A stretch of DNA of 64,000 nt. Origin: Escherichia phage BME3. The notes under the pieces are model-generated. The model did no database searches, was not told where the DNA came from, and worked only from the letters and a program-made list of their open reading frames with translations. Every line of letters starts with the position of its first letter. The first letter of the stretch is position 1. Of this stretch, positions 36,876-49,334 are shown one piece after another. The DNA lies in the sequence record PP239276.1. The stretch is one strand, 5' to 3'. The position numbers and the translations under genes are program-made.

Positions 36876-37219
36876 TAGTGGCTAAAATTCTTTGGTTAGA
36901 CGATTTAAGAGATCCTAAAGATTATGGTTATGAGGATGCCATTTGGTTAAAATCTTTTGGGGATTGGTTATCTTTTGTTTCAGATGAAGATAATTTCAAT
37001 AATATCTCAGAGATACACTTCGATAATGATCTTGGAGAAGATCAGGAAGGATATCATGCATTCTTAGACGTAGAATGTATGTTGTATGCGGGTGAATGGG
37101 ATGCTCTTAAAACTATCTATGTCCATACATCAAACCCTTCTGCTGCTGGTAAATATATGTTAGCTAAGGAAAATTTTATTTCATCTTATGGTGTTGAAAT
37201 TAAGCGTGTTAACTATTAA
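36845..37219 (+). CDS. hypothetical protein with receiver-like motifs (start uncertain)
   Basis: KILWLDDLRDP and IHFDNDLGED resemble the paired acidic strands of CheY-like receiver folds; an alternative GTG start lies about 33 nt downstream. Confidence 0.3.
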   Translation: MERRETGRGLIVAKILWLDDLRDPKDYGYEDAIWLKSFGDWLSFVSDEDNFNNISEIHFDNDLGEDQEGYHAFLDVECMLYAGEWDALKTIYVHTSNPSAAGKYMLAKENFISSYGVEIKRVNY

Positions 37220-37377
37220 GTAGGTATTATGCATTACTCAGTTTGGTCAGAGCAAGAAGAGGATGAAGGGCGTTTTATCTATAAAGAGGAAGAAAACTGT
37301 AACGATACGAGTAATGATCTTTTACTTCCTGATTACAGTTTTTTCGCTGATAGATTAAAAGAGTACGGAGAAAATTG

Positions 37378-37737
37378 ATGTGCGCTACTAATCAACATGA
37401 TATTTGTTACCAACCTCTTACTTGGCTTGGTGAGGATCACTATGCTCAACGTGTTATAGTCTGCGCTGCGAATAAGTATATTCTCAATAATGGCGAAGAG
37501 TTAATTATTCCTTGTGTTAGGCATGCAAATCCTGTACTATCTGCACAACTTAATGTTTTAAAAGATGCAGGATTGATTGATAAACTGTTTTGCTTACCTG
37601 ATAATCAAGGGTTTATTGATCAGTATTATAACTGGTGGAGTCGCAAAGATGCTTATATCATTGCAGATAACGCCAAACAAATTAACTACGAAAGAAATGG
37701 TCACAACAGTGAACTATTCAGCGAGGGATTATACTAA
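37378..37737 (+). CDS. hypothetical protein
   Basis: About 119-aa ORF. Confidence 0.35.
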   Translation: MCATNQHDICYQPLTWLGEDHYAQRVIVCAANKYILNNGEELIIPCVRHANPVLSAQLNVLKDAGLIDKLFCLPDNQGFIDQYYNWWSRKDAYIIADNAKQINYERNGHNSELFSEGLY

Positions 37738-38288
37738 TGTTTATTACAAGTGATTTGCATTTTATGCACAAACGTATCCGAGAGTTTGCTCCTGAATATC
37801 GCCCGTGGGAAGATATGGAGCATATGACAGAAGCACTGATCGAAGCATGGAATAAATGTGCCACAACACCAGGAGTAAAGATGTACCATCTTGGGGACTT
37901 CTGTTTCGGGACTGAAGAAGATACCCGTAAGATTGCTTCCCGTCTCCAAGGAGATATTACTTACTGTGTTGGGAACCATGATTATAGTAAACACAGAAAA
38001 GTGCTTGCAGAGTATGGAGAAGTGGTTTATTATGACGAAGTGAAATATCAGAAGCTGTTCTTCGTCTTAAGTCATTACCCTATGGCTGCCTGGAATAAAC
38101 AAGGGCATGGATCAATCATGCTACACGGACACTCTCACGGATCATTCCCTGACCATTTGTATGGGAAGATGTTGGATGTTGGTTGGGATGCACACGGGAA
38201 AATCTTGCATTTTGACGAAATCATCTCTATTATGGATAAGCGTGATATTGTTGTTGTAGACCATCATAAGATAATCAAAGGAGATTAA
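37737..38288 (+). CDS. metallophosphoesterase (calcineurin-like; candidate RNA 3'-end phosphatase)
   Basis: 183-aa ORF with GDFCFG, GNHD and HGHSH motifs of the metallophosphoesterase fold. Confidence 0.6.
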   Translation: MFITSDLHFMHKRIREFAPEYRPWEDMEHMTEALIEAWNKCATTPGVKMYHLGDFCFGTEEDTRKIASRLQGDITYCVGNHDYSKHRKVLAEYGEVVYYDEVKYQKLFFVLSHYPMAAWNKQGHGSIMLHGHSHGSFPDHLYGKMLDVGWDAHGKILHFDEIISIMDKRDIVVVDHHKIIKGD

Positions 38289-38289
38289 G

Positions 38290-39222
38290 GTGGCTAAGTT
38301 CAATTGTGATGACCTGATTGCAAAAGGTTTAGTGCATAAAAAAGAAGTTAAATCTGGAGAGTATGCTGGTCTTGCTGTACTTAAATACAAAAACAATGTA
38401 TTCTGGGATAACTTGTGGAACGTTGACAAACGACTTTTAGATTGTCGTGGGTTGGTTGTTGATTCAGAAGACAATGTTGTTATTTGGCCTTTTACTAAAA
38501 TCTTTAATCGTTTTGAAAATGGTACAGATCTTCCAGCAGACGAAATTGTAGATGCTGTCCGTAAAGTAAACGGTTTTATGGCATCTGTAGGTGTGTACAA
38601 AGGGAAACTTGTTGTATCAACAACAGGGAGCCTAGAATCAGATTTCGCAATTATGGCAAAGAACCGTATTGTTTCCGAGTGTGACGACATAGAGTATTTC
38701 ATTAAGTGGACAGAAAGTGCAAAAGCAACTTTTCTTTTTGAAATCTGTGATCCTTCTGATCCACATATTGTCGAAGAAGAACCAGGCGCATACTTAATTG
38801 GAGCAAGAATTCAAAATCTTGATGGGACAAGTTTCATGTTACCTGAAGGTGTTCTTGATGGGATTGCATCTGTTACAAAATTTAAACGTCCTGAAGTTTA
38901 TCCGATGATTAAATTTTCAGATGTTGTTGAAATGTCTAAACATTGTAAACACGAAGGGTTTGTAGTTCGTGAAACAAACTACCCGTTTAACTTACTGTTA
39001 AAGATTAAGTCACCATACTATCTTGCTAAAAAATTCCTTATGCGTGGTGGCAATAAGAAGTGGGATATGATTTGGGACAACCCAAACAATGCTAAACAAA
39101 TTGTTGACGAAGAATATTATACTTTGCTAGAATGGCTTCGAAACAACTTTACGAAGGCTCAATGGGCTGCTCTCGATCCACAAGAGAGACGTAAAGAAAT
39201 AGAAAACTTCTTTGGAGGCTAA
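38290..39222 (+). CDS. RNA ligase, T4 Rnl1-like
   Basis: 310-aa ORF; DCRGLVVD and nucleotidyltransferase lysine motif KVNGF parallel T4 RnlA ECRGIMFE and KEDGSL. Confidence 0.5.
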   Translation: MAKFNCDDLIAKGLVHKKEVKSGEYAGLAVLKYKNNVFWDNLWNVDKRLLDCRGLVVDSEDNVVIWPFTKIFNRFENGTDLPADEIVDAVRKVNGFMASVGVYKGKLVVSTTGSLESDFAIMAKNRIVSECDDIEYFIKWTESAKATFLFEICDPSDPHIVEEEPGAYLIGARIQNLDGTSFMLPEGVLDGIASVTKFKRPEVYPMIKFSDVVEMSKHCKHEGFVVRETNYPFNLLLKIKSPYYLAKKFLMRGGNKKWDMIWDNPNNAKQIVDEEYYTLLEWLRNNFTKAQWAALDPQERRKEIENFFGG

Positions 39223-39627
39223 ATGAAACAACTTATCATTTTACGTGGTGTTTCAGGCGCAGGTAAATCTACAGTAGCAGAAATTATCTCTGAAAATCAT
39301 TGGCCTATTTGTGAGGCAGATCAATACCACTACACTGAAGATGGTGTGTATGAGTGGAAACAAGAGAATATCCATAAAGCACACCAATGGTGTCGTGTCA
39401 AAGTACAAAAATATATGCAGTATGGTGTTGAAAAGATTATTGTCTCTAACACTTCAACCACAGAGAAAGAACTTAAACCTTATTTAACTCTTGCTGAAGA
39501 GTTTGGTTATCAAGTTATCTCTTTAGTAGTTGAAAATAGGCACGGTAACGACTCAATTCATGAGGTTCCACAACATATTCGTGATCAGCAAGAGAAACGT
39601 CTTCGCAGTTCACTTAAACTACAATAA
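39223..39627 (+). CDS. P-loop kinase (polynucleotide 5'-kinase-like)
   Basis: 134-aa ORF with Walker A GVSGAGKST at the N-terminus, T4 Pnk kinase-domain-like. Confidence 0.5.
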   Translation: MKQLIILRGVSGAGKSTVAEIISENHWPICEADQYHYTEDGVYEWKQENIHKAHQWCRVKVQKYMQYGVEKIIVSNTSTTEKELKPYLTLAEEFGYQVISLVVENRHGNDSIHEVPQHIRDQQEKRLRSSLKLQ

Positions 39628-39636
39628 GGAGAGTGT

Positions 39637-39957
39637 ATGGAAATTTATTCTGGTGAAGGTAAGTATTTTACAGTAGTCGATAATGGTGAAATTATTATTT
39701 ATCGCTACGGAAGTGAGTGGAGGAACGAGACAGGAGACGGCTATATCTTATCTTTGCTCCGTTTGATTAATGATCTTACGGAAGAACTTGAAGAAACAAA
39801 ACGTTCATATGATGACCAAGTAGATTCATTAGAAAACATTATTTCAGATCTAAATGAAGAAGTTTGTTATTTGAGTGGACAAGTTTCAGAGTTAACACTG
39901 GAATGTGAAGATTTAGGTGATGTTATTGCAGATTTAAATGAACGTCTTAAGGATTAA
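39637..39957 (+). CDS. hypothetical coiled-coil protein
   Basis: 106-aa ORF with an acidic heptad-like C-terminal half. Confidence 0.35.
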   Translation: MEIYSGEGKYFTVVDNGEIIIYRYGSEWRNETGDGYILSLLRLINDLTEELEETKRSYDDQVDSLENIISDLNEEVCYLSGQVSELTLECEDLGDVIADLNERLKD

Positions 39958-39960
39958 TAT

Positions 39961-40185
39961 ATGAGTACAGCTATCTATGTTAAAGGTGTAAGCGAAGATC
40001 AACAAATGTTATTCTCATTTGGTGAGAATACTGAAATGGAAGATATGTTTAATGATATCCTTGATGCCCTTTCTTCTGAAGGGTTCACAATGATTACATA
40101 CTTTATGGCAACATCTTCTGAATATGTTGATACAGATCTTGAAGACTTGATGGAAGAAATTCAAACTCTTGTGTATAATTGGTAA
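39961..40185 (+). CDS. hypothetical acidic protein
   Basis: 74-aa ORF. Confidence 0.3.
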   Translation: MSTAIYVKGVSEDQQMLFSFGENTEMEDMFNDILDALSSEGFTMITYFMATSSEYVDTDLEDLMEEIQTLVYNW

Positions 40186-40382
40186 GGTTAACTATGACAT
40201 TTATTGAAGAACTAACGAGAATTGCAAACGCGCCTAACAGTAGTGAAGATCCTTACTTTATGGTGGATGATTACACTGGTGGTAATATTGATGATGCCTA
40301 TGAACTAGGCAGACTACACGGTGAAATTGAAATGGCTAAATGGGTTCTTTCGCAACTGGAGGTTAAAGATGAAACAAACTAA
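40179..40382 (+). CDS. hypothetical protein
   Basis: 67-aa ORF. Confidence 0.3.
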   Translation: MVRLTMTFIEELTRIANAPNSSEDPYFMVDDYTGGNIDDAYELGRLHGEIEMAKWVLSQLEVKDETN

Positions 40383-41484
40383 TCCTACATTGTATGGTAA
40401 AACTTCTACAGGTAAAATTAAACAGTGGTCAGTCTATACCGAAGGTAGTGTTGTAACTGTTGCTCATGGTCAATTAGGTGGAAAGATTACTAGCAAATCT
40501 TATACAGCAGAACCTAAAAATATTGGTCGCTCAAATGAAACAACAGCAGAAGAACAAGCTGAAATAGAAGCTCTTGCCAAATGGACAAAGCAACTTAAGA
40601 ATGGGTATTATAAAACAAAAGAGGAAGCTGAAAACCATGTTCCTTCTACACCCATGAAATGTCAGGATTATAAAGATTATGCTGATCGTGTTTTGTTCCC
40701 AGGTTATGCACAATATAAATTGAATGGTCTACGTTCAATGATTAACATGCAAGGTGAATGTTTATCTAAAGCTGGGGAGGTATATAAACTTCCACCTCAC
40801 TGGGAAGAAATTCCAACCTTCATTAAAGAAGTAGTTAGTCATCCTCTTGACGGTGAAGTTTTTGCTGGTTTGGGTGTCCTTAGCCTTCAACAAATTAATA
40901 GTGCGTGGAAAAAGCATAATGCTAACACTCCGCTTCTTAAATACTATGTATATGATGTTCCTGTGCCATCTGTACCATTTGAGAAGAGGGTTGAAGTTTT
41001 GGCTGCTCTAAAAGACGTTGTTGAAGATAAAGGTTTAGATGAACTTATTTGTGTAGTACATACAGAGTACATTGAAAACCAAGAGCAGTTTGATGAATTC
41101 TATGCAAAAGCTCTGCGTGAGAAAGCGGAAGGTGTTGTGTATCGTAATGCACAAGGTGTTTACGAGTTTGATAAACGTTCTTATGATGTTATTAAACGTA
41201 AACCACGGCAGACGCTGGAAGTTAAGGTGGTAAGTGCAAAACGTGATAAAAATGGTGACGGGGTATTGACAGGTGAGATGGAAAATGGTAAAGTAGTCGA
41301 ATTCCTGATGCGTAAGGATTCAGATGAAACCATTAACTATCGTAAAGAAGAAAATGCTTTGACACTTATTGGTCAATTTGTTGAAATAGAGTACGAAGAA
41401 TTTTCAGACGAAGGTATTCCTACCAAGCCTGTTGGGGTACGTGTACGTAAGATGATTCCAGGTACTTGGGAACCAGCAGAGTAA
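40369..41484 (+). CDS. ATP-dependent nucleic-acid ligase (DNA ligase or Rnl5-type RNA ligase)
   Basis: ATG after GGAGG RBS; covalent nucleotidyltransferase motifs KLNGLR, DGEVF, EGVVYRN and VIKRK in canonical order. Confidence 0.55.
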   Translation: MKQTNPTLYGKTSTGKIKQWSVYTEGSVVTVAHGQLGGKITSKSYTAEPKNIGRSNETTAEEQAEIEALAKWTKQLKNGYYKTKEEAENHVPSTPMKCQDYKDYADRVLFPGYAQYKLNGLRSMINMQGECLSKAGEVYKLPPHWEEIPTFIKEVVSHPLDGEVFAGLGVLSLQQINSAWKKHNANTPLLKYYVYDVPVPSVPFEKRVEVLAALKDVVEDKGLDELICVVHTEYIENQEQFDEFYAKALREKAEGVVYRNAQGVYEFDKRSYDVIKRKPRQTLEVKVVSAKRDKNGDGVLTGEMENGKVVEFLMRKDSDETINYRKEENALTLIGQFVEIEYEEFSDEGIPTKPVGVRVRKMIPGTWEPAE

Positions 41485-42410: not shown

Positions 42411-42430
42411 AAGCCCCTTCGGGGGCTTAT
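42411..42430 (+). terminator. terminator-like hairpin after the MazG-like gene
   Basis: AGCCCC-ttcg-GGGGCT followed by TTATT; U-tract short. Confidence 0.3.
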
Positions 42431-43909: not shown

Positions 43910-45028
43910 ATTAGCGGTTACATTTTAATCCAACCGGAAGACCTGCACAAATATGTTGACGAGAACACAATTCTTGCAATAGACTACGATCAAGTGGCGT
44001 TCCAAGCGTCTTCAGCTTTAGAACAAAGAAAAATCCACGCTGTACACAAGGCTTCCGGTAATGTAAAAGAGTTTGAAACAAGAACAGATTTTTGGGGTAA
44101 ATCTTCAAAAAATATTGGAGGATGGTTAGGAGCACTTAACGCGCAACGCGAAGCTGCTGGTAAGAAGTTGTTCTCTAGAGAAGATTTTGAAATAAAAGAT
44201 GTTCAAATAGTCCCAGATAATATTTCTTTTACGTTTCAAGCTGCAAAGACAAAAATAACCCAGATGATGGATCACCTAAAACTTCAAAAGTATTGCGGTG
44301 TCATCGGGGTAGGAAAAACCTTCCGGCATTCTTTCAAAATGCCAAAAGAATATAAATCAGAACGATCAGATTTAAGACCAATCCATTTATCAGATACTAA
44401 AGATTATTTAGTTGAAAAACATAACGGTGACGTTGTTACTAGTATTGAGGCAGATGATGCTTTAGAAATCTATGGATATGCAGGGTATAAAGCCTACAAG
44501 GAAACTGGTAAGTTTTCTCATATTGTAGCATCTATCGACAAAGATAGCTTGCACACACCAAGTTTACTCTTTAACTTTTATAAAGAGGATGGTGTTTATA
44601 AAAATCCTTGTATTATTCTGATTGATGAATCTATCGGTGATATCTGGATCGTAGAAAAAGGTAAGAAAAAAGAAATTAAGGGTTGGGGTAGTTACTGGTT
44701 AGCTTATCAAATGCTAATGGGCGATAAGACAGATAGTATTCGACCTTACCAAGATTTCGATGTTAAGTTTGGAGATATTACTTGCTTTAATCTTATTTCC
44801 AAATGTAAAACACAGGCTGAACTTTTTCAGACAGTTAAAGATCAGTATTATGAATGGTTCCCAGATGGCGTTAAATTTACTTCTTGGGATGGTGAAGAAG
44901 TAGAAATGACAACTGATGAATGGATAGAGACAATTTTTCAGTTGGTATATATGAAACGTTGGGCGAATGATGAAACAACTTTTGAAAGTATGCTACAAGC
45001 GTATATTTCAGAGCAGGAGGAACATTGA
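43910..45028 (+). CDS. FEN-family 5'-3' exonuclease / RNase H (T4 RNase H-like); start codon uncertain
   Basis: TSIEADDALEIYGY and YQMLMGDKTDSI parallel T4 RNase H YEADDHIAVL and KILKGDKKDNV; conserved N-terminal ILAIDYDQVAF lies upstream of the first ATG/GTG, so initiation may be at a non-canonical codon after the GGAGG at about 43901. Confidence 0.5.
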   Translation: MSGYILIQPEDLHKYVDENTILAIDYDQVAFQASSALEQRKIHAVHKASGNVKEFETRTDFWGKSSKNIGGWLGALNAQREAAGKKLFSREDFEIKDVQIVPDNISFTFQAAKTKITQMMDHLKLQKYCGVIGVGKTFRHSFKMPKEYKSERSDLRPIHLSDTKDYLVEKHNGDVVTSIEADDALEIYGYAGYKAYKETGKFSHIVASIDKDSLHTPSLLFNFYKEDGVYKNPCIILIDESIGDIWIVEKGKKKEIKGWGSYWLAYQMLMGDKTDSIRPYQDFDVKFGDITCFNLISKCKTQAELFQTVKDQYYEWFPDGVKFTSWDGEEVEMTTDEWIETIFQLVYMKRWANDETTFESMLQAYISEQEEH

Positions 45029-47215: not shown

Positions 47216-47779
47216 ATGGCTAAACTTTATTTCCGATATAGTCCAATGAACAGTGGTAAAAGCACACATCTGCTACAAACAGCTTGGAACTATAAAGAAA
47301 GAAATATGAAAGTTCTTCTTTTAACTTCAGCTTTAGATACCAGATCTGGTTGTGCTATTGCTTCTAGGATAGGTATTAAAGAGGAAGCAAAACCAGTTAA
47401 AACAAAAGAAGATATGCTGGAAATTTATACACAGCTTAAAGAAAATCCAGTAGATGCAGTATTTGTGGACGAATCACAATTCCTAACTAAAGATATGGTT
47501 GACATTCTTGGAGATGTGGTAGATAATTACGATATTCCTGTATTCTGCTATGGACTTAAAACAGATTTTGCTACAGAATTGTTTGAAGGTTCTGAACGGT
47601 TATTAGCCATAGCAGATTCAATTACGGAATTGAAAAGCATTTGTAAATGTGGAAGAAAAGCTATTTTCAATGCTAGACTTATCGACTCTAAAGAACAGAT
47701 TGTTATTGGGGGAGAAGACATTTACGAAACGATGTGTAGAAAATGTTATAACAGGAGAAATAATGCGTCTAGTATGTGA
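47216..47779 (+). CDS. tdk: thymidine kinase
   Basis: 187-aa ORF; MAKLYFRYSPMNSGKST P-loop and overall pattern closely parallel bacterial Tdk; C-terminal zinc ribbon CKCG...CRKC. Confidence 0.85.
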   Translation: MAKLYFRYSPMNSGKSTHLLQTAWNYKERNMKVLLLTSALDTRSGCAIASRIGIKEEAKPVKTKEDMLEIYTQLKENPVDAVFVDESQFLTKDMVDILGDVVDNYDIPVFCYGLKTDFATELFEGSERLLAIADSITELKSICKCGRKAIFNARLIDSKEQIVIGGEDIYETMCRKCYNRRNNASSM

Positions 47780-48353
47780 TTGGGATTTAGTAATAGCTCC
47801 TGCGGATATAGAATGGTTAAATTGGTTAAATGCGGTAAGTAGATCTAATATCGAATTTGATAAGACACATAAAACTGTGCATTATGATATTACGAAATAT
47901 TTCCCTGATTTTAAAAAGCAATTTGGTGTAGATCCTTACTCTTTTTGGGATAACCAACATCTATATGATACTATGGGAGTAGTACCTAATAGTACAGATG
48001 TTGTTCATCGTATAATTGCAAATGGAGCTAATATATCTATAGCAAGCCACACTAAGGGTGGACACCTTAGTTCTAAATATAGACACGTAACACGGTCTTT
48101 AGATAAAGTGGATTTTAGTAGAACATCTGGTAATGGTTTTTTCGCAACAAAAGAAAAATACTTATTGCCTTGCGACGTAACTATTGATGATAGGGCTGAA
48201 AATCTTGTCCTGTTTCCAGATGAAACATTGAAAATATATTTCAACACTATTTACGAAGATCCATACTTGGAAGAATTAAAGAAACTTCCTAATGTAATTA
48301 TCACTGGTTTAGATAATCAGTGGGAAGAAATTGAAAGTATTTTACTACCTTAA
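47763..48353 (+). CDS. 5'(3')-deoxyribonucleotidase-like HAD phosphatase
   Basis: Internal ATG; N-terminal LVCDWDLV (DxDxV HAD motif I) and C-terminal TIDDRAEN resemble the NT5C deoxynucleotidase family. Confidence 0.45.
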   Translation: MRLVCDWDLVIAPADIEWLNWLNAVSRSNIEFDKTHKTVHYDITKYFPDFKKQFGVDPYSFWDNQHLYDTMGVVPNSTDVVHRIIANGANISIASHTKGGHLSSKYRHVTRSLDKVDFSRTSGNGFFATKEKYLLPCDVTIDDRAENLVLFPDETLKIYFNTIYEDPYLEELKKLPNVIITGLDNQWEEIESILLP

Positions 48354-48362
48354 GGAGAAATA

Positions 48363-49334
48363 ATGACAGATTCTATTTCAGCAAAAATTATTGCACACTC
48401 TCAAACATCTGAAGGTAAGGATATTGTTACCTTTGAACTTGAATATCCTCGCATCATTCACTCTGAATTGATGACGCATCGTTTGTTTTCTCGTAATGCT
48501 GCATCAAGTCGAGCTATCCCTGTTAAAACTCTAATTGAAATGGTACGGCAATCTCCAGCACGTCCTTATCGTTTTGGTGCTAACCAACCAGGTATGCAAG
48601 ATAAAGGCACGGATCACGATGCCCTGATTGATGCAGGTTACACTGCAAAAGAATGGTGGGACTTGGCTGCGCTAAGTGCTGCACGTTTTGCAGAAGAGTT
48701 TGCCCTTGCTGGTTATCATAAACAGGTTGCAAACCGCCTACTAGAACCATTTCAGCGTATGAAGACTGTAGTAACCACTACAGAGTTAGAAAACTTCTTG
48801 TGGTTGCGCGTAGATGCTGATGCAGATCCTACTATTGAGGCTCTTGCTAAAGAAATTAAAAAACTGTATGAATCTTCTGAACCATATCTTCTTTTCCCAG
48901 GGGAATGGCATACACCTTACGTTAATCGTGATCGAGATCCAGAAACTGGTATGATCCGTTATTTCTTGGGTGAAACCTTCTCCAACGAGAAAATGTTGAC
49001 AGAAGACGAAGCAAAAGCTATTTCAGCTTCTTGTTGCGCTCAGGTAAGTTATCGTAAATTGAATGATACTAAAGATAAAGCATTAGATATCTATTCTCGT
49101 TTGCTGTCTGGACAAAAGGTACATGCATCTCCGTTTGAACACCAGGCAACGCCAATGAAAGAAATGGATCTGTCAGGATTAAAACAACAGAAAGATGGTA
49201 TTAATATGCCTCCGTTCCCTTCTTCTTGGGAGGAAGGTATTACACATATGGATCGTAAACATCGTTTGTGGAGTGGAAACTTCTGTGGTTGGATTCAACA
49301 TCGTCAACTTTTGACTAACCATACAAAATGGTGA
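48363..49334 (+). CDS. thyX: flavin-dependent thymidylate synthase ThyX
   Basis: 323-aa ORF containing the ThyX-type signature RHSELMTHRLFSRNAASSRAIP. Confidence 0.6.
   Translation: MTDSISAKIIAHSQTSEGKDIVTFELEYPRIIHSELMTHRLFSRNAASSRAIPVKTLIEMVRQSPARPYRFGANQPGMQDKGTDHDALIDAGYTAKEWWDLAALSAARFAEEFALAGYHKQVANRLLEPFQRMKTVVTTTELENFLWLRVDADADPTIEALAKEIKKLYESSEPYLLFPGEWHTPYVNRDRDPETGMIRYFLGETFSNEKMLTEDEAKAISASCCAQVSYRKLNDTKDKALDIYSRLLSGQKVHASPFEHQATPMKEMDLSGLKQQKDGINMPPFPSSWEEGITHMDRKHRLWSGNFCGWIQHRQLLTNHTKW

What the first reader, a model, noticed from the sequence alone, without database searches (positions are those of the whole stretch)
37737..39627. Three-gene RNA healing-and-sealing cassette: metallophosphoesterase, Rnl1-like ligase, P-loop kinase
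A calcineurin-type phosphoesterase (GNHD, HGHSH), a ligase with T4 Rnl1-like motifs (DCRGLVV, KVNGF) and a small Walker A kinase (GVSGAGKST) sit in tandem with near-zero spacing. Together they supply the 3'-phosphatase, 5'-kinase and ligase activities needed to repair tRNAs cut by anticodon nucleases. Unlike T4 Pnkp, the phosphatase and kinase are separate proteins and the phosphatase is a metallophosphoesterase rather than a HAD domain.
Basis: partly seen in the sequence, partly recalled or inferred. Interest (0 to 1): 0.65.

Follow-up and report, generated by a model that had tools for sequence, protein, structure and literature searches.

The report
Phage three-enzyme RNA repair cassette
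Three back-to-back genes of a phi92-like E. coli phage encode a metal-dependent phosphoesterase, a T4 Rnl1/Trl1-type RNA ligase and a small polynucleotide kinase. They recur together in hundreds of phages and in some bacteria, and most likely re-join RNAs (probably tRNAs) cut by host defence nucleases. This is a split variant of known RNA repair systems that had been noticed computationally; I found no report that it has been tested.

Summary
The window is about 98% identical to Escherichia phage phi92, and ORFs 37737-38288, 38290-39222 and 39223-39627 (gp097, gp096, gp095) are translationally coupled.

- **Identities.** The first ORF is a binuclear metallophosphoesterase (MPE) with all metal ligands invariant. 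The second is an Rnl1/Trl1-fold RNA ligase. The third has a polynucleotide-kinase fold.
- **Linkage.** In 80 viral contigs carrying this ligase (29-96% identity), the kinase lies within 10 kb in 73 and the MPE in 71, in several gene orders. In 53 dereplicated loci these two are by far the commonest neighbours. In 66 of 69 bacterial loci (Campylobacter, Moraxella, Neisseria) all three are present; in the eight ORFs inspected, kinase and ligase are fused, and in the two read fully the MPE follows directly.
- **Best reading.** A self-contained RNA healing-and-sealing module, analogous to T4 Pnkp+Rnl1 and bacterial Pnkp.

Caveats:
- The MPE family also occurs in many phages without the ligase, and its closest solved relative has no known function.
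- The ligase has Trl1-like features (KxNG; conserved Lys/Arg after motif V), so a 2'-phosphate pathway is not excluded.
- cREC and MazG genes nearby may belong to the system.
- Iyer et al. 2022 already described this neighbourhood in rV5-like phages.
- I found no biochemistry.

The parts
37737..38288 (+). Binuclear metallophosphoesterase (phi92 gp097), the proposed 2',3'-cyclic-phosphate/3'-phosphate end-healing enzyme
   Evidence: phrog_547 E 5e-55. The family profile hits PDB 1xm7 (aq_1665) at E 5e-24. D6, H8, D54, N80, H81, H113, H132 and H134 are invariant in 41 homologues, as are the family-specific H11, W119 and D151. The gene lies within 10 kb of the ligase in 71 of 80 viral loci and 66 of 69 bacterial loci.
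38290..39222 (+). ATP-dependent RNA ligase of the Rnl1/Trl1 fold (phi92 gp096)
   Evidence: Pfam RNA_lig_T4_1 E 2e-14, above the gathering score. The profile hits T4 Rnl1 at E 4e-17. The AF2 model has pLDDT 91, and Foldseek matches T4 Rnl1 at E 1e-13 and Trl1-LIG at E 1e-12. R53, K70, K92, N94, G95, E151, E222, G223, K238, K240, Y244 and K248 are invariant in 53 homologues.
39223..39627 (+). Stand-alone 5'-OH polynucleotide kinase-like P-loop protein (phi92 gp095)
   Evidence: AAA_33 E 2e-10. The profile hits T4 Pnk at E 1e-7 and CthPnk at E 4e-6. The AF2 model has pLDDT 91.5, and the top 20 Foldseek matches are all CthPnk or T4 Pnk. K15, D33 and N76 are invariant and R106 nearly so. The domain is fused to this ligase family in bacteria and metagenomes.
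36845..37219 (+). cREC (cyclic-phosphate-processing receiver-like) protein, phi92 gp100. Probable accessory component; not part of the widely conserved core.
   Evidence: Pfam cREC_REC E 1.4e-13, above the gathering score. Present next to the ligase only in the phi92, Phapecoctavirus and Vequintavirus groups: 12 of 85 sequences (80 viral loci, four reference loci and the window). Predicted to resolve cyclic phosphates (PMC7824862, PMC9503650).
41682..42404 (+). MazG-like nucleotide pyrophosphohydrolase. Last gene before a terminator-like hairpin and listed as part of the rV5-type neighbourhood by Iyer et al. Its membership in the system is uncertain.
   Evidence: Pfam PRA-PH E 3e-7 and phrog_671. 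A hairpin at 42411-42428 follows its stop. Co-occurs with the ligase only in the same 12 sequences as cREC. See PMC9503650 section 3.7.3.

Best explanation
The three genes form a self-contained RNA healing-and-sealing module.

Proposed mechanism:
1. An RNA is cut by a transesterifying ribonuclease, for example a host anticodon nuclease or toxin. [quoted passage not shown]
2. The metallophosphoesterase (gp097) uses a two-metal centre to open and remove the cyclic or 3'-phosphate.
3. The P-loop kinase (gp095) transfers a phosphate from NTP to the 5'-OH, with Asp33 as general base.
4. The ligase (gp096) is adenylylated on Lys92, transfers AMP to the 5'-phosphate and seals the break.

The module is a split, three-polypeptide analogue of T4 Pnkp+Rnl1 and of bacterial kinase-MPE-ligase Pnkp.

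Shown here: the folds, the conservation of catalytic residues, and the strong, order-independent genomic linkage, including kinase-ligase fusions.

Inferred: the enzymatic activities, the MPE as the 3'-end healer, tRNA as the substrate, and the counter-defence role. In phi92-like phages the nearby cREC protein may assist in opening cyclic phosphates.
For: Identity of the parts:
- Ligase: Pfam above the gathering score. T4 Rnl1 is the best solved relative (E 4e-17). Motif I, III, IV and V residues and the Rnl1-essential R54, K75 and Y246 equivalents are invariant. The model has the Rnl1/Trl1 fold.
- Kinase: the best solved relatives are all polynucleotide or tRNA kinases. Foldseek's top 20 are CthPnk and T4 Pnk. 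Equivalents of T4 K15, S16, D35, D85/T86 and R126 are conserved.
- MPE: the complete binuclear metal-ligand set is invariant.

Linkage:
- In 80 IMG/VR loci with ligase identity of 29-96%, the kinase is present in 73 and the MPE in 71. Median gaps to the ligase are 11 nt and about 400 nt. Gene orders include MPE-LIG-KIN, KIN-LIG-MPE and LIG-KIN-MPE.
- The trio is present in Justusliebigvirus, Vequintavirus, Pakpunavirus and Demerecviridae.
- Unbiased clustering of neighbours in 53 dereplicated loci gave kinase in 45, MPE in 42, and the next family (dCMP deaminase) in 22.
- About 35 loci carry the trio with no cREC, Sir2, Macro or NAD genes within 10 kb.
- In 66 of 69 bacterial loci all three are present in the order KIN-LIG-MPE. 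In the eight ORFs inspected, kinase and ligase are one ORF of 492-510 aa, except L090, which is unfused. In the two loci read fully (L097, L108) the MPE follows directly.
- Among the 150 best kinase relatives are ligase-kinase, kinase-ligase, HD-kinase and kinase-2H(CNPase) fusions. All of these partners are RNA end-processing enzymes.

Precedent:
- MPE domains perform 2',3'-cyclic phosphodiesterase plus phosphomonoesterase end healing in CthPnkp and lambda phosphatase (PMC2190708, PMC3675462).
- In other phages the same ligase family pairs with a T4-type Pnkp or a stand-alone Pnk inside tRNA arrays.
- A 16-tRNA array lies 6 kb upstream in the window.
Against: - I found no biochemical or genetic test of any of the three proteins.
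- The MPE family is about twice as widespread in phages as the ligase or kinase (1395 vs 755 and 625 records). It occurs without them in Kayvirus, mycobacteriophage L5 (next to a helicase) and many Vibrio phages. It therefore need not be RNA-specific.
- The MPE's closest solved relative (aq_1665) has no known function. The MPE profile gave no match at E<=1 to the lambda-phosphatase-type MPE of bacterial Pnkp.
- No MPE-kinase or MPE-ligase fusion was seen.
- The T4 Pnk acceptor-binding R38 is not conserved (H36 here). T4 Rnl1 K119 is Thr112 in all members.
- The C-terminal domain is about 65 aa and does not align with the tRNA-specificity domain of T4 Rnl1, so the RNA target is unknown.
- In some lineages an HD phosphohydrolase or cREC sits nearby and could be the real 3'-end healer.
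Confidence: 0.7

Rival explanations
1. The cassette is a fungal/plant-style repair pathway rather than a T4-style one. A phosphodiesterase (the MPE or cREC) opens the cyclic phosphate to give 3'-OH,2'-PO4. The ligase prefers or requires the 2'-phosphate. The resulting 2'-PO4 junction is then erased with NAD+ by a 2'-phosphotransferase: the Sir2 protein in rV5-like relatives, or host KptA in phi92.
For: - Motif I is KxNG in all 53 phage and 8 bacterial homologues. This matches Trl1 (PMC10946426) rather than the KEDG of T4 Rnl1.
- An invariant Lys248 and a nearly invariant Arg252 sit on the first helix after motif V, at +8 and +12 from K240. In Trl1, two arginines of the C-terminal domain (R295/R298 in S. 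cerevisiae) confer 2'-phosphate specificity (bioRxiv 10.1101/2024.06.06.597711). By my recollection of the Trl1 motif V numbering they lie at a similar spacing.
- Foldseek scores Trl1 ligase domains as highly as T4 Rnl1.
- Sister genera carry Sir2 and cREC beside the ligase. Iyer et al. proposed exactly this role for them (PMC9503650).
Against: - At sequence-profile level the family hits T4 Rnl1 (E 4e-17) but no Trl1 structure at E<=1.
- The window has no Sir2.
- Most lineages, and the bacterial operons, carry only the trio, with no 2'-phosphotransferase candidate nearby.
- The neighbouring PRS-like, NAMPT-like and Macro genes are explained independently as the NARP1/NARP1-AP anti-defence pathway (bioRxiv 10.64898/2026.01.28.702374).
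- The Lys/Arg correspondence to the Trl1 arginines was not verified by superposition.
Confidence: 0.2
2. Only the kinase and ligase form the repair pair. The MPE is a general phage phosphoesterase with another substrate (nucleotides, cyclic or ADP-ribose-derived signals, or DNA ends). It merely sits in the same early, nucleotide-metabolism or anti-defence gene block. The 3'-end healing is done by cREC, an HD protein or a host enzyme.
For: - MPE homologues at similar identity occur in about 640 more phage records than the ligase. These include genomes where the surrounding 4-5 kb hold no ligase or kinase.
- Kinase-ligase coupling is much tighter than MPE-ligase coupling: median gap 11 nt vs about 400 nt, and fusions exist only for kinase and ligase.
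- HD-kinase fusions exist, and an HD gene neighbours the module in 24 of the 85 sequences compared.
Against: - The MPE is the second most conserved neighbour of the ligase in 53 dereplicated loci, far ahead of any other family.
- It keeps its adjacency through several gene-order rearrangements and across four phage groups.
- It directly follows the Pnk-Rnl fusion gene in the two bacterial chromosomal loci read fully, among unrelated housekeeping genes. The other 64 loci show the same compact spacing by tblastn.
- A kinase plus a 3'-OH/5'-PO4 ligase cannot repair cyclic-phosphate breaks without a 3'-end healer, and most loci contain no other candidate.
Confidence: 0.2
3. The kinase and MPE heal DNA ends (5'-OH, 3'-phosphate) for the ATP-dependent DNA ligase encoded 700 bp downstream. 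Alternatively, the ligase acts as a tail-fibre attachment factor, like the second activity of T4 gp63.
For: - An ATP-dependent DNA ligase lies at 40321-41484. It is within 5 kb of the RNA ligase in 20 of 53 dereplicated loci.
- T4 Pnkp acts on DNA as well as RNA (PDB entries with ssDNA).
- PHROG and GenBank labels carry the 'tail fiber attachment catalyst' name.
Against: - The kinase is coupled and fused to the RNA ligase, not to the DNA ligase.
- The bacterial operons have no adjacent DNA ligase.
- The tail-fibre label is inherited from T4 gp63 by homology only. The gene sits among early, nucleotide-metabolism genes on the strand opposite the structural module.
Confidence: 0.05

Closest known systems
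Bacteriophage T4 Pnkp + Rnl1 tRNA repair pathway
   Same: Same three chemistries are expected: 5'-kinase, 2',3'/3'-phosphate removal and ATP-dependent sealing. The ligase is a detectable homologue of Rnl1 (E 4e-17) with the same fold and most essential residues. The kinase is a homologue of the Pnkp kinase domain, with the catalytic Lys, Ser, Asp and Arg conserved. Both are phage-encoded and sit near tRNA genes.
   Different: - The kinase is a stand-alone 134-aa protein with no HAD (DxDxT) phosphatase domain.
- The phosphatase is a separate binuclear metallophosphoesterase.
- Ligase motif I is KxNG, not KEDG.
- The Rnl1 K119 equivalent is Thr.
- The C-terminal domain is about 65 aa and is unrelated in sequence to the 120-aa tRNA-specificity domain of Rnl1.
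- The Pnk R38 equivalent is not conserved.
Bacterial Pnkp/Hen1 (Clostridium thermocellum Pnkp; Capnocytophaga Pnkp1-Rnl-Hen1)
   Same: It uses a P-loop polynucleotide kinase, a binuclear metallophosphoesterase and an ATP-dependent ligase. The kinase model is structurally closest to CthPnk (TM 0.76), and the kinase profile hits Pnkp1 (E 5e-6).
   Different: - There are three separate polypeptides instead of one. The bacterial relatives of this module fuse kinase to ligase and leave the MPE separate.
- The MPE belongs to the aq_1665-type family, not the lambda-phosphatase-like clade.
- The ligase is Rnl1/Trl1-type.
- No Hen1 methyltransferase was found among the neighbouring ORFs scanned.
Fungal/plant tRNA ligase Trl1 (LIG-KIN-CPD) with Tpt1
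   Same: The ligase fold matches equally well (Foldseek E 1e-12). Motif I is KxNG. Conserved basic residues lie on the first C-terminal-domain helix. Stand-alone ligase and kinase versions exist in Mucorales, and their kinase structures are among the best profile hits (E about 1e-7).
   Different: - There is no 2H cyclic phosphodiesterase domain; an MPE takes its place.
- No Tpt1/KptA is present, and there is no Sir2 in this window.
- No sequence-profile hit to Trl1 ligase domains at E<=1.
- A 2'-phosphate requirement is untested.
Sirtuin-centred RNA repair neighbourhood of rV5/Mydo-type phages (Iyer, Burroughs, Anantharaman, Aravind 2022, PMC9503650)
   Same: This is the same gene set in the same phage group: T4-like tRNA ligase, cREC, nucleotide kinase, MazG and calcineurin-like phosphoesterase.
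   Different: - The defining sirtuin is absent from this window and from phi92.
- That paper treats the phosphoesterase as occasional. Here the ligase-kinase-MPE trio is the widely conserved core, and the sirtuin, cREC and MazG genes are lineage-restricted add-ons.

Membership tests
Rnl1-type ATP-dependent RNA ligase (Pfam RNA_lig_T4_1) | Sequence match to the family model above the curated threshold | tested here: met
   54.3 bits against a gathering score of 28.3, E 2.3e-14. The family profile hits T4 Rnl1 structures at E 4e-17.
Rnl1-type ATP-dependent RNA ligase (Pfam RNA_lig_T4_1) | Covalent nucleotidyltransferase motifs: motif I Lys-x-x-Gly, motif III Glu, motif IV Glu-Gly, motif V Lys-x-Lys | tested here: met
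   K92-V-N-G95, E151, E222-G223 and K238-x-K240 are invariant in 53 homologues. They align to T4 K99, E159, E227-G228 and K240/K242.
Rnl1-type ATP-dependent RNA ligase (Pfam RNA_lig_T4_1) | Other residues essential in T4 Rnl1: R54, K75, F77, D101, G102, K119, Y246 (list recalled from Wang et al. 2003, not read here) | tested here: inconclusive
   R53, K70, G95 and Y244 are invariant and F72 is nearly invariant (>=90%). D101 corresponds to invariant N94, and K119 to invariant T112.
Rnl1-type ATP-dependent RNA ligase (Pfam RNA_lig_T4_1) | Adenylyltransferase fold | tested here: met
   AF2 model with pLDDT 91.0 and pTM 0.87. Foldseek top matches are 5tt6, 2c5u and 9do4 (T4 Rnl1), E 1e-13 to 3e-12, TMq 0.63-0.67.
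Rnl1-type ATP-dependent RNA ligase (Pfam RNA_lig_T4_1) | C-terminal all-helical tRNA-specificity domain of T4 Rnl1 (residues about 255-374) | tested here: not met
   The profile alignment to T4 Rnl1 stops at motif V (profile positions 26-239). The C-terminal region here is about 65 aa of short helices.
Rnl1-type ATP-dependent RNA ligase (Pfam RNA_lig_T4_1) | ATP-dependent sealing of 3'-OH/5'-PO4 RNA ends | not testable with these tools
   Requires enzymology.
Trl1-type (2'-phosphate-dependent) tRNA ligase | Motif I KxNG | tested here: met
   K92-V-N94-G95. N94 is invariant in phage and bacterial homologues. The definition is from PMC10946426.
Trl1-type (2'-phosphate-dependent) tRNA ligase | Two C-terminal-domain arginines that bind the terminal 2'-phosphate (Ct R334/R337) | tested here: inconclusive
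   K248 is invariant and R252 is conserved in >=90% of members, on the helix after motif V. Structural equivalence to R334/R337 could not be checked because no coordinates or superposition were available.
Trl1-type (2'-phosphate-dependent) tRNA ligase | Ligase linked to a kinase and a 2H cyclic phosphodiesterase, with a Tpt1 partner | tested here: not met
   The kinase is present, but no 2H or Tpt1/KptA domain was found in the ORFs scanned in 35-50 kb. No Sir2 is present in the 64-kb window.
5'-OH polynucleotide kinase clade of P-loop phosphotransferases (T4 Pnk, CthPnk) | Walker A GxxxxGK[ST], the general-base Asp (T4 D35), and the Arg contacting the NTP phosphates (T4 R126) | tested here: met
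   G9-T17 with K15/S16. D33 is invariant. R106 is nearly invariant and aligned to R126.
5'-OH polynucleotide kinase clade of P-loop phosphotransferases (T4 Pnk, CthPnk) | Acceptor-site residues (T4 R38 and D85/T86; roles recalled, not read here) | tested here: inconclusive
   N76/T77 align with D85/T86 and are conserved. The R38 position is H36 here and is variable in the family.
5'-OH polynucleotide kinase clade of P-loop phosphotransferases (T4 Pnk, CthPnk) | Fold closest to polynucleotide kinases rather than to (d)NMP or adenylate kinases | tested here: met
   AF2 model with pLDDT 91.5. Foldseek ranks 1-20 are all CthPnk or T4 Pnk(p), with best TMq per enzyme of 0.76-0.78. UMP-CMP kinase and adenylate kinase give TMq about 0.5.
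T4 Pnkp (bifunctional kinase-phosphatase) | C-terminal DxDxT (HAD) 3'-phosphatase domain | tested here: not met
   The protein is 134 aa and consists of the kinase domain only.
Binuclear metallophosphoesterase superfamily | Five motifs supplying the metal ligands: DxH, GD, GNH[DE], H, GHxH | tested here: met
   D6-x-H8, G53-D54, G79-N80-H81-D82, H113 and G131-H132-x-H134 are invariant in 41 homologues.
Binuclear metallophosphoesterase superfamily | Pfam Metallophos/Metallophos_2 match above the gathering score | tested here: not met
   The window protein scores 21.1 bits against a cut-off of 27. The Campylobacter orthologue passes Metallophos (25.7 vs 21.5). The family profile hits the MPE structure 1xm7 at E 5e-24.
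Bacterial Pnkp/Hen1 RNA repair system | Kinase, lambda-phosphatase-like MPE and ligase in one polypeptide, with a Hen1 methyltransferase partner | tested here: not met
   There are three separate ORFs. The MPE profile gave no Pnkp or lambda-phosphatase structure at E<=1. No methyltransferase domain was found in the neighbouring ORFs scanned.
Sirtuin-centred phage RNA repair neighbourhood (Iyer et al. 2022, type 2) | Sirtuin gene linked to the T4-like ligase, cREC, kinase and MazG | tested here: not met
   Ligase, cREC, kinase, MazG and MPE are all present. The Murica Sir2 protein finds no match in the 64-kb window, whereas it does in Phapecoctavirus and Vequintavirus loci.

The most novel reading that the evidence does not exclude
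The phi92-type ligase may be a prokaryotic/viral counterpart of fungal Trl1: a ligase that prefers 3'-OH,2'-phosphate ends and leaves a 2'-phosphate at the junction. The MPE (or cREC) would then act as a regiospecific cyclic phosphodiesterase. The 2'-phosphate would be erased by the phage Sir2 in rV5-like phages, or by host KptA/Tpt1 in phi92 and in the bacteria carrying the Pnk-Rnl fusion operon. That would give bacterial KptA/Tpt1, whose natural substrate is unknown (PMC6097658), a physiological source of 2'-phosphate RNA.
Probability: 0.2. Interest if true: 0.75.

Novelty: new variant of a known kind. Interest (0 to 1): 0.48.

Why it matters
RNA-cleaving defences such as anticodon nucleases, PARIS, retron effectors, Cas13 and toxins are now recognised as common. 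T4 Pnkp/Rnl1 is the only experimentally established phage RNA repair answer that I am aware of.

This module appears to be a second, much more widespread solution. It is present in hundreds of sequenced phages of Escherichia, Klebsiella, Pseudomonas, Vibrio, Acinetobacter and Aeromonas, including therapy candidates such as the PAK_P1 group. It also occurs as a chromosomal Pnk-Rnl fusion plus MPE operon in Campylobacter, Moraxella and Neisseria.

If confirmed, it would:
- assign a function to an uncharacterised MPE family (the aq_1665 type);
- define a minimal three-protein RNA repair kit;
- through the ligase's hybrid Rnl1/Trl1 features, make directly testable the question of whether 2'-phosphate junction chemistry exists in bacteria and phages.

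Tried and rejected
- **Single-sequence PDB search with the ligase** gave only chance hits. A family profile was needed.
- **Promoter scan** was at background level, 34 sites vs 31 expected, and was not used.
- **Search for the sirtuin** that defines the published rV5-type neighbourhood found none in the window. Pfam and PHROG scans of neighbouring ORFs and tblastn with Murica Sir2 were all negative.
- **gp085-like ORF 43994-45028** was considered as a hidden sirtuin. It is an exonuclease family.
- **A replacement phosphoesterase in the six viral loci that lack the MPE** was not found. The 168-aa ORFs upstream of the kinase are not MPEs, and Pfam shows only nucleotide-metabolism genes and a Macro domain.
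- **MPE-kinase or MPE-ligase fusions** were not found among the 150 best kinase relatives.
- **Macro/PRS/NAMPT adjacency as evidence for an NAD-dependent RNA repair step** was considered. I down-weighted it because these genes form the experimentally shown NARP1/NARP1-AP pathway.
- **Literature and tool limits.** Burroughs & Aravind 2016 (NAR) could not be read. The search for related loci with the 53-sequence alignment failed for lack of conserved blocks. No literature on aq_1665/COG4186 function was found.
- **Residue-level superposition** of the ligase model on Trl1-RNA structures was not possible with the tools.

Full report
**Source and observation**

The window is a phi92-like myovirus. 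Positions 37000-40400 are 98.4% identical to Escherichia phage phi92 (Justusliebigvirus) over their full length.

- 37737-38288 (183 aa; phi92 gp097, annotated 'phosphoesterase')
- 38290-39222 (310 aa, GTG start; gp096)
- 39223-39627 (134 aa; gp095, annotated 'ATPase')

The genes are separated by 1 and 0 nucleotides. Each has a Shine-Dalgarno sequence, and the preceding ORF overlaps the first start codon as TAATG.

**The ligase**

- Pfam RNA_lig_T4_1 matches above its gathering score (E 2e-14).
- A profile of 53 homologues from viral contigs hits T4 Rnl1 structures at E 4e-17, over the nucleotidyltransferase core only.
- The invariant residues R53, K70, K92, G95, E151, E222, G223, K238, K240 and Y244 align to T4 R54, K75, K99, G102, E159, E227, G228, K240, K242 and Y246.
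- Two positions differ systematically. T4 D101 is an invariant Asn, making motif I KxNG. T4 K119 is an invariant Thr.
- An AlphaFold2 model built on 43 sequences has pLDDT 91. Its best Foldseek matches are T4 Rnl1 (E 1e-13) and, essentially tied, fungal Trl1 ligase domains (E 1e-12). Rnl3, Rnl2 and Rnl5 follow.
- The region after motif V is a short helical domain of about 65 residues that does not align with the tRNA-specificity domain of T4 Rnl1.

**The kinase**

- AAA_33 matches at E 2e-10.
- A 45-sequence profile ranks T4 polynucleotide kinase first among solved structures (E 1e-7, full length). Next come Mucorales stand-alone RNA kinases, CthPnk, Pnkp1, PSTK and mammalian PNKP. Nucleotide kinases match only through the P-loop.
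- K15, D33 (equivalent to the T4 D35 general base) and N76 are invariant. R106 (equivalent to T4 R126) is nearly invariant. The T4 R38 position is not conserved.
- The AF2 model (pLDDT 91.5) has CthPnk and T4 Pnk as its top 20 Foldseek matches, with best TM 0.76-0.78. UMP-CMP kinase and adenylate kinase give TM about 0.5.

The second refutation criterion, a dNMP or adenylate kinase, is therefore also not met, as far as structure can tell.

**The phosphoesterase**

- The single-sequence Pfam hit (Metallophos_2) is below threshold. However, phrog_547 matches at E 5e-55.
- A 41-sequence profile hits the structural-genomics MPE aq_1665 (PDB 1xm7) at E 5e-24. The next hit is the phosphodiesterase GpdQ.
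- All canonical binuclear-site residues are invariant: D6, H8, D54, N80, H81, H113, H132, H134. So are the family-specific H11, W119 and D151.
- The family showed no detectable similarity to the lambda-phosphatase-like MPE domain of bacterial Pnkp. I found no paper on its function.

**Genomic linkage**

This is the strongest evidence.

- The ligase family is present in 755 phage records. The kinase is present in 625, with an almost identical host-genus breakdown.
- Annotated loci show the trio in four unrelated phage groups, with different gene orders and even different strands:
  - phi92
  - Vequintavirus Murica
  - Pakpunavirus PAK_P1
  - the T5-like Vibrio phage Achelous

- In 80 IMG/VR loci with ligase identity down to 29%, the kinase lies within 10 kb in 73 and the MPE in 71. 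The median distances to the ligase are 11 nt and about 400 nt.
- An unbiased clustering of all ORFs within 5 kb of the ligase in 53 dereplicated loci found the kinase in 45 and the MPE in 42. The next families were dCMP deaminase (22), DNA ligase (20) and NAMPT-like (16).
- About 35 loci carry the trio with none of the NAD-related or cREC genes nearby.

**Bacterial relatives and fusions**

- A scan of one genome per bacterial species found 69 loci in the Campylobacter concisus/gracilis group, Moraxella (including a complete chromosome), Neisseria flavescens, Cardiobacterium and others.
- In 66 of these, all three components are present in a compact KIN-LIG-MPE arrangement.
- In seven of the eight ORFs I extracted, kinase and ligase are fused into one protein of 492-510 aa; the eighth (L090) is unfused. 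In the two loci read fully (L097, L108) the MPE gene follows directly, among ordinary chromosomal genes.
- A profile search of 1.84 billion representative proteins with the kinase found 9474 clusters at E<=1e-10. Among the best 150 were ligase-kinase and kinase-ligase fusions, HD-kinase fusions, and a kinase-CNPase (2H) fusion. From memory, the HD-kinase type includes Runella HD-Pnk, which has been characterised.

Every fusion partner is an RNA end-processing enzyme. This supports the polynucleotide-kinase assignment and the functional unity of kinase and ligase.

**Most likely mechanism**

- The MPE removes the cyclic or 3'-phosphate. MPE domains do this in CthPnkp and lambda phosphatase (PMC2190708, PMC3675462).
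- The kinase phosphorylates the 5'-OH.
- The ligase seals the break through a Lys92-AMP intermediate.

The phage context includes a 16-tRNA array 6 kb away and early or anti-defence genes. It suggests a counter-defence role against tRNA- or RNA-cleaving host systems, as for T4 Pnkp/Rnl1. In other phages the same ligase family is paired with a T4-type Pnkp or with a stand-alone Pnk inside a tRNA array.

Folds, residue conservation and linkage are shown here. Activities, substrate and biological role are inferred.

**Caveats and rivals**

First, the MPE family is about twice as widespread as the ligase (1395 records). It occurs without a ligase or kinase in the surrounding 4-5 kb in Kayvirus, mycobacteriophage L5 and many Vibrio phages. 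No MPE fusion was seen. The MPE could therefore be a more general phosphoesterase. I give this rival 0.2.

Second, the ligase has Trl1-like traits.
- Motif I is KxNG (PMC10946426).
- Lys248 and Arg252 are conserved on the helix after motif V in phage and bacterial members.
- In Trl1, two C-terminal-domain arginines confer 2'-phosphate specificity, and T4 Rnl1 does not seal such ends (bioRxiv 10.1101/2024.06.06.597711).
- Sister genera carry Sir2 and cREC next to the ligase. Iyer et al. proposed an NAD-dependent 2'-phosphate removal step (PMC9503650).

Against this reading:
- The window lacks Sir2.
- Most lineages and the bacterial operons have only the trio.
- The profile similarity is to Rnl1, not to Trl1.
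- The nearby PRS-like, NAMPT-like and Macro genes are independently explained as NARP1/NARP1-AP.

I give this rival 0.2. DNA-end repair or tail-fibre attachment seem unlikely (0.05).

**Boundaries**

The cassette sits in a + strand gene block that starts at the strand switch near 34.9-35.2 kb. It ends at a terminator-like hairpin at 42411-42428, just after the MazG-like gene. If that hairpin is a real terminator, the block is one transcription unit.

A cREC gene (36845-37219, Pfam E 1.4e-13) lies two genes upstream. With MazG, it may be a lineage-specific accessory, because both accompany the ligase only in phi92-, Phapecoctavirus- and Vequintavirus-type loci.

**Comparison with what is known, and novelty**

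The system works like T4 Pnkp+Rnl1 and like bacterial Pnkp, but it is a member of neither architecture.
- There is no HAD domain.
- There is no single kinase-MPE-ligase polypeptide.
- There is no Hen1.
- The MPE clade is different.
- The ligase C-terminal domain is different.

The neighbourhood in rV5-type phages was already described computationally, with the phosphoesterase called 'occasional' and a sirtuin regarded as central (PMC9503650). A recent Pakpunavirus paper notes the phosphatase-less kinase plus RNA ligases (PMC12846349). Some GenBank records already label the genes 'RNA ligase', 'phosphoesterase' and 'polynucleotide kinase'. I found no biochemical or genetic study.

I therefore rate it a new variant of a known kind, of moderate interest. 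What this analysis adds:
- The ligase-kinase-MPE trio, not the sirtuin set, is the conserved core across phage families.
- The trio also exists as a Pnk-Rnl fusion plus MPE operon in several bacterial genera.
- The ligase combines Rnl1-like and Trl1-like features.

Noticed in passing
window 36845-37219 (+): ORF with a clear Pfam cREC_REC match (cyclic-phosphate-processing receiver domain, E 1.4e-13), two genes upstream of the cassette. The family is predicted, not tested, to open 2',3'-cyclic or ADP-ribose cyclic phosphates. It accompanies the ligase only in phi92-, Phapecoctavirus- and Vequintavirus-type loci.
   Followed up: partly
window 37375-37737 (+): A 120-aa ORF (phi92 gp098, phrog_839) whose stop overlaps the MPE start codon. 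Its relatives carry Pfam PF26092, and some records name them 'putative anti-restriction nuclease'. The local Pfam copy gave no hit. Homologues lie a few kb from the ligase in three other viral loci (L066, L071, L082). Function unknown.
   Followed up: partly
window 32143-33876 (-) and 33948-34841 (-): A NAMPT-like and PRPP-synthetase-like gene pair, divergently transcribed from the cassette block. It resembles the Namat/Adps pair of the NARP1 NAD+ reconstitution pathway. The same pair, often with a Macro-domain gene (Adpp-like), lies beside the ligase trio in Pakpunavirus and Vibrio T5-like phages. This looks like an anti-defence island arrangement.
   Followed up: partly
window 28518-31395 (-): Array of 16 tRNA genes (three Met; two each of Leu and Ser; one each of Ile, Phe, Pro, Gln, Gly, Thr, Asn, Tyr and Lys), about 6 kb upstream of the repair cassette on the opposite strand. 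Ligase-kinase genes also sit next to or inside tRNA arrays in phage Murica and Streptomyces phage Belfort.
   Followed up: no
window about 34000-35200: GC skew changes sign and the cumulative skew reaches its minimum here. This coincides with the divergent switch from - strand genes (tRNAs, NAMPT, PRS) to the + strand early gene block.
   Followed up: no
window 42411-42428: GC-rich hairpin (AAGCCCCCGAAGGGGCTT) with T-runs on both strands, immediately after the MazG-like gene. It is a likely bidirectional terminator closing the block that contains the cassette. Phage Murica has an annotated terminator at the equivalent place.
   Followed up: no
L002 9271-10032, and L007-L011, L013, L080: A Sir2-family gene (Pfam E 7e-28 for the Murica copy) lies beside the ligase, cREC and kinase genes in Vequintavirus and Phapecoctavirus. 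It is absent from phi92 and from this window, so the sirtuin is dispensable or was lost in Justusliebigvirus.
   Followed up: partly
L097 5416-7648 and L108 5356-7626 (bacterial chromosomes): The Campylobacter concisus group, Moraxella and Neisseria flavescens encode a Pnk-Rnl fusion protein of about 500 aa, followed directly by the MPE in the two loci read fully, among housekeeping genes. In C. concisus a barnase/RNase-T1-family ribonuclease gene (L097 3889-4395) and a 90-aa ORF lie about 1 kb upstream.
   Followed up: partly
L059, L060, L066, L071, L072: In these viral loci, which lack the MPE, a Macro-domain gene follows the ligase directly or after one short ORF. In three of them (L066, L071, L072) no NAMPT or PRS genes were found in the locus. 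It is unexplained whether this Macro protein replaces the MPE or is unrelated.
   Followed up: partly
window 40321-41484 (+), 47216-49334 (+): An ATP-dependent DNA ligase, thymidine kinase, NT5C-like nucleotidase and ThyX-like genes lie downstream. The cassette is embedded in the nucleotide-metabolism/replication early region.
   Followed up: no
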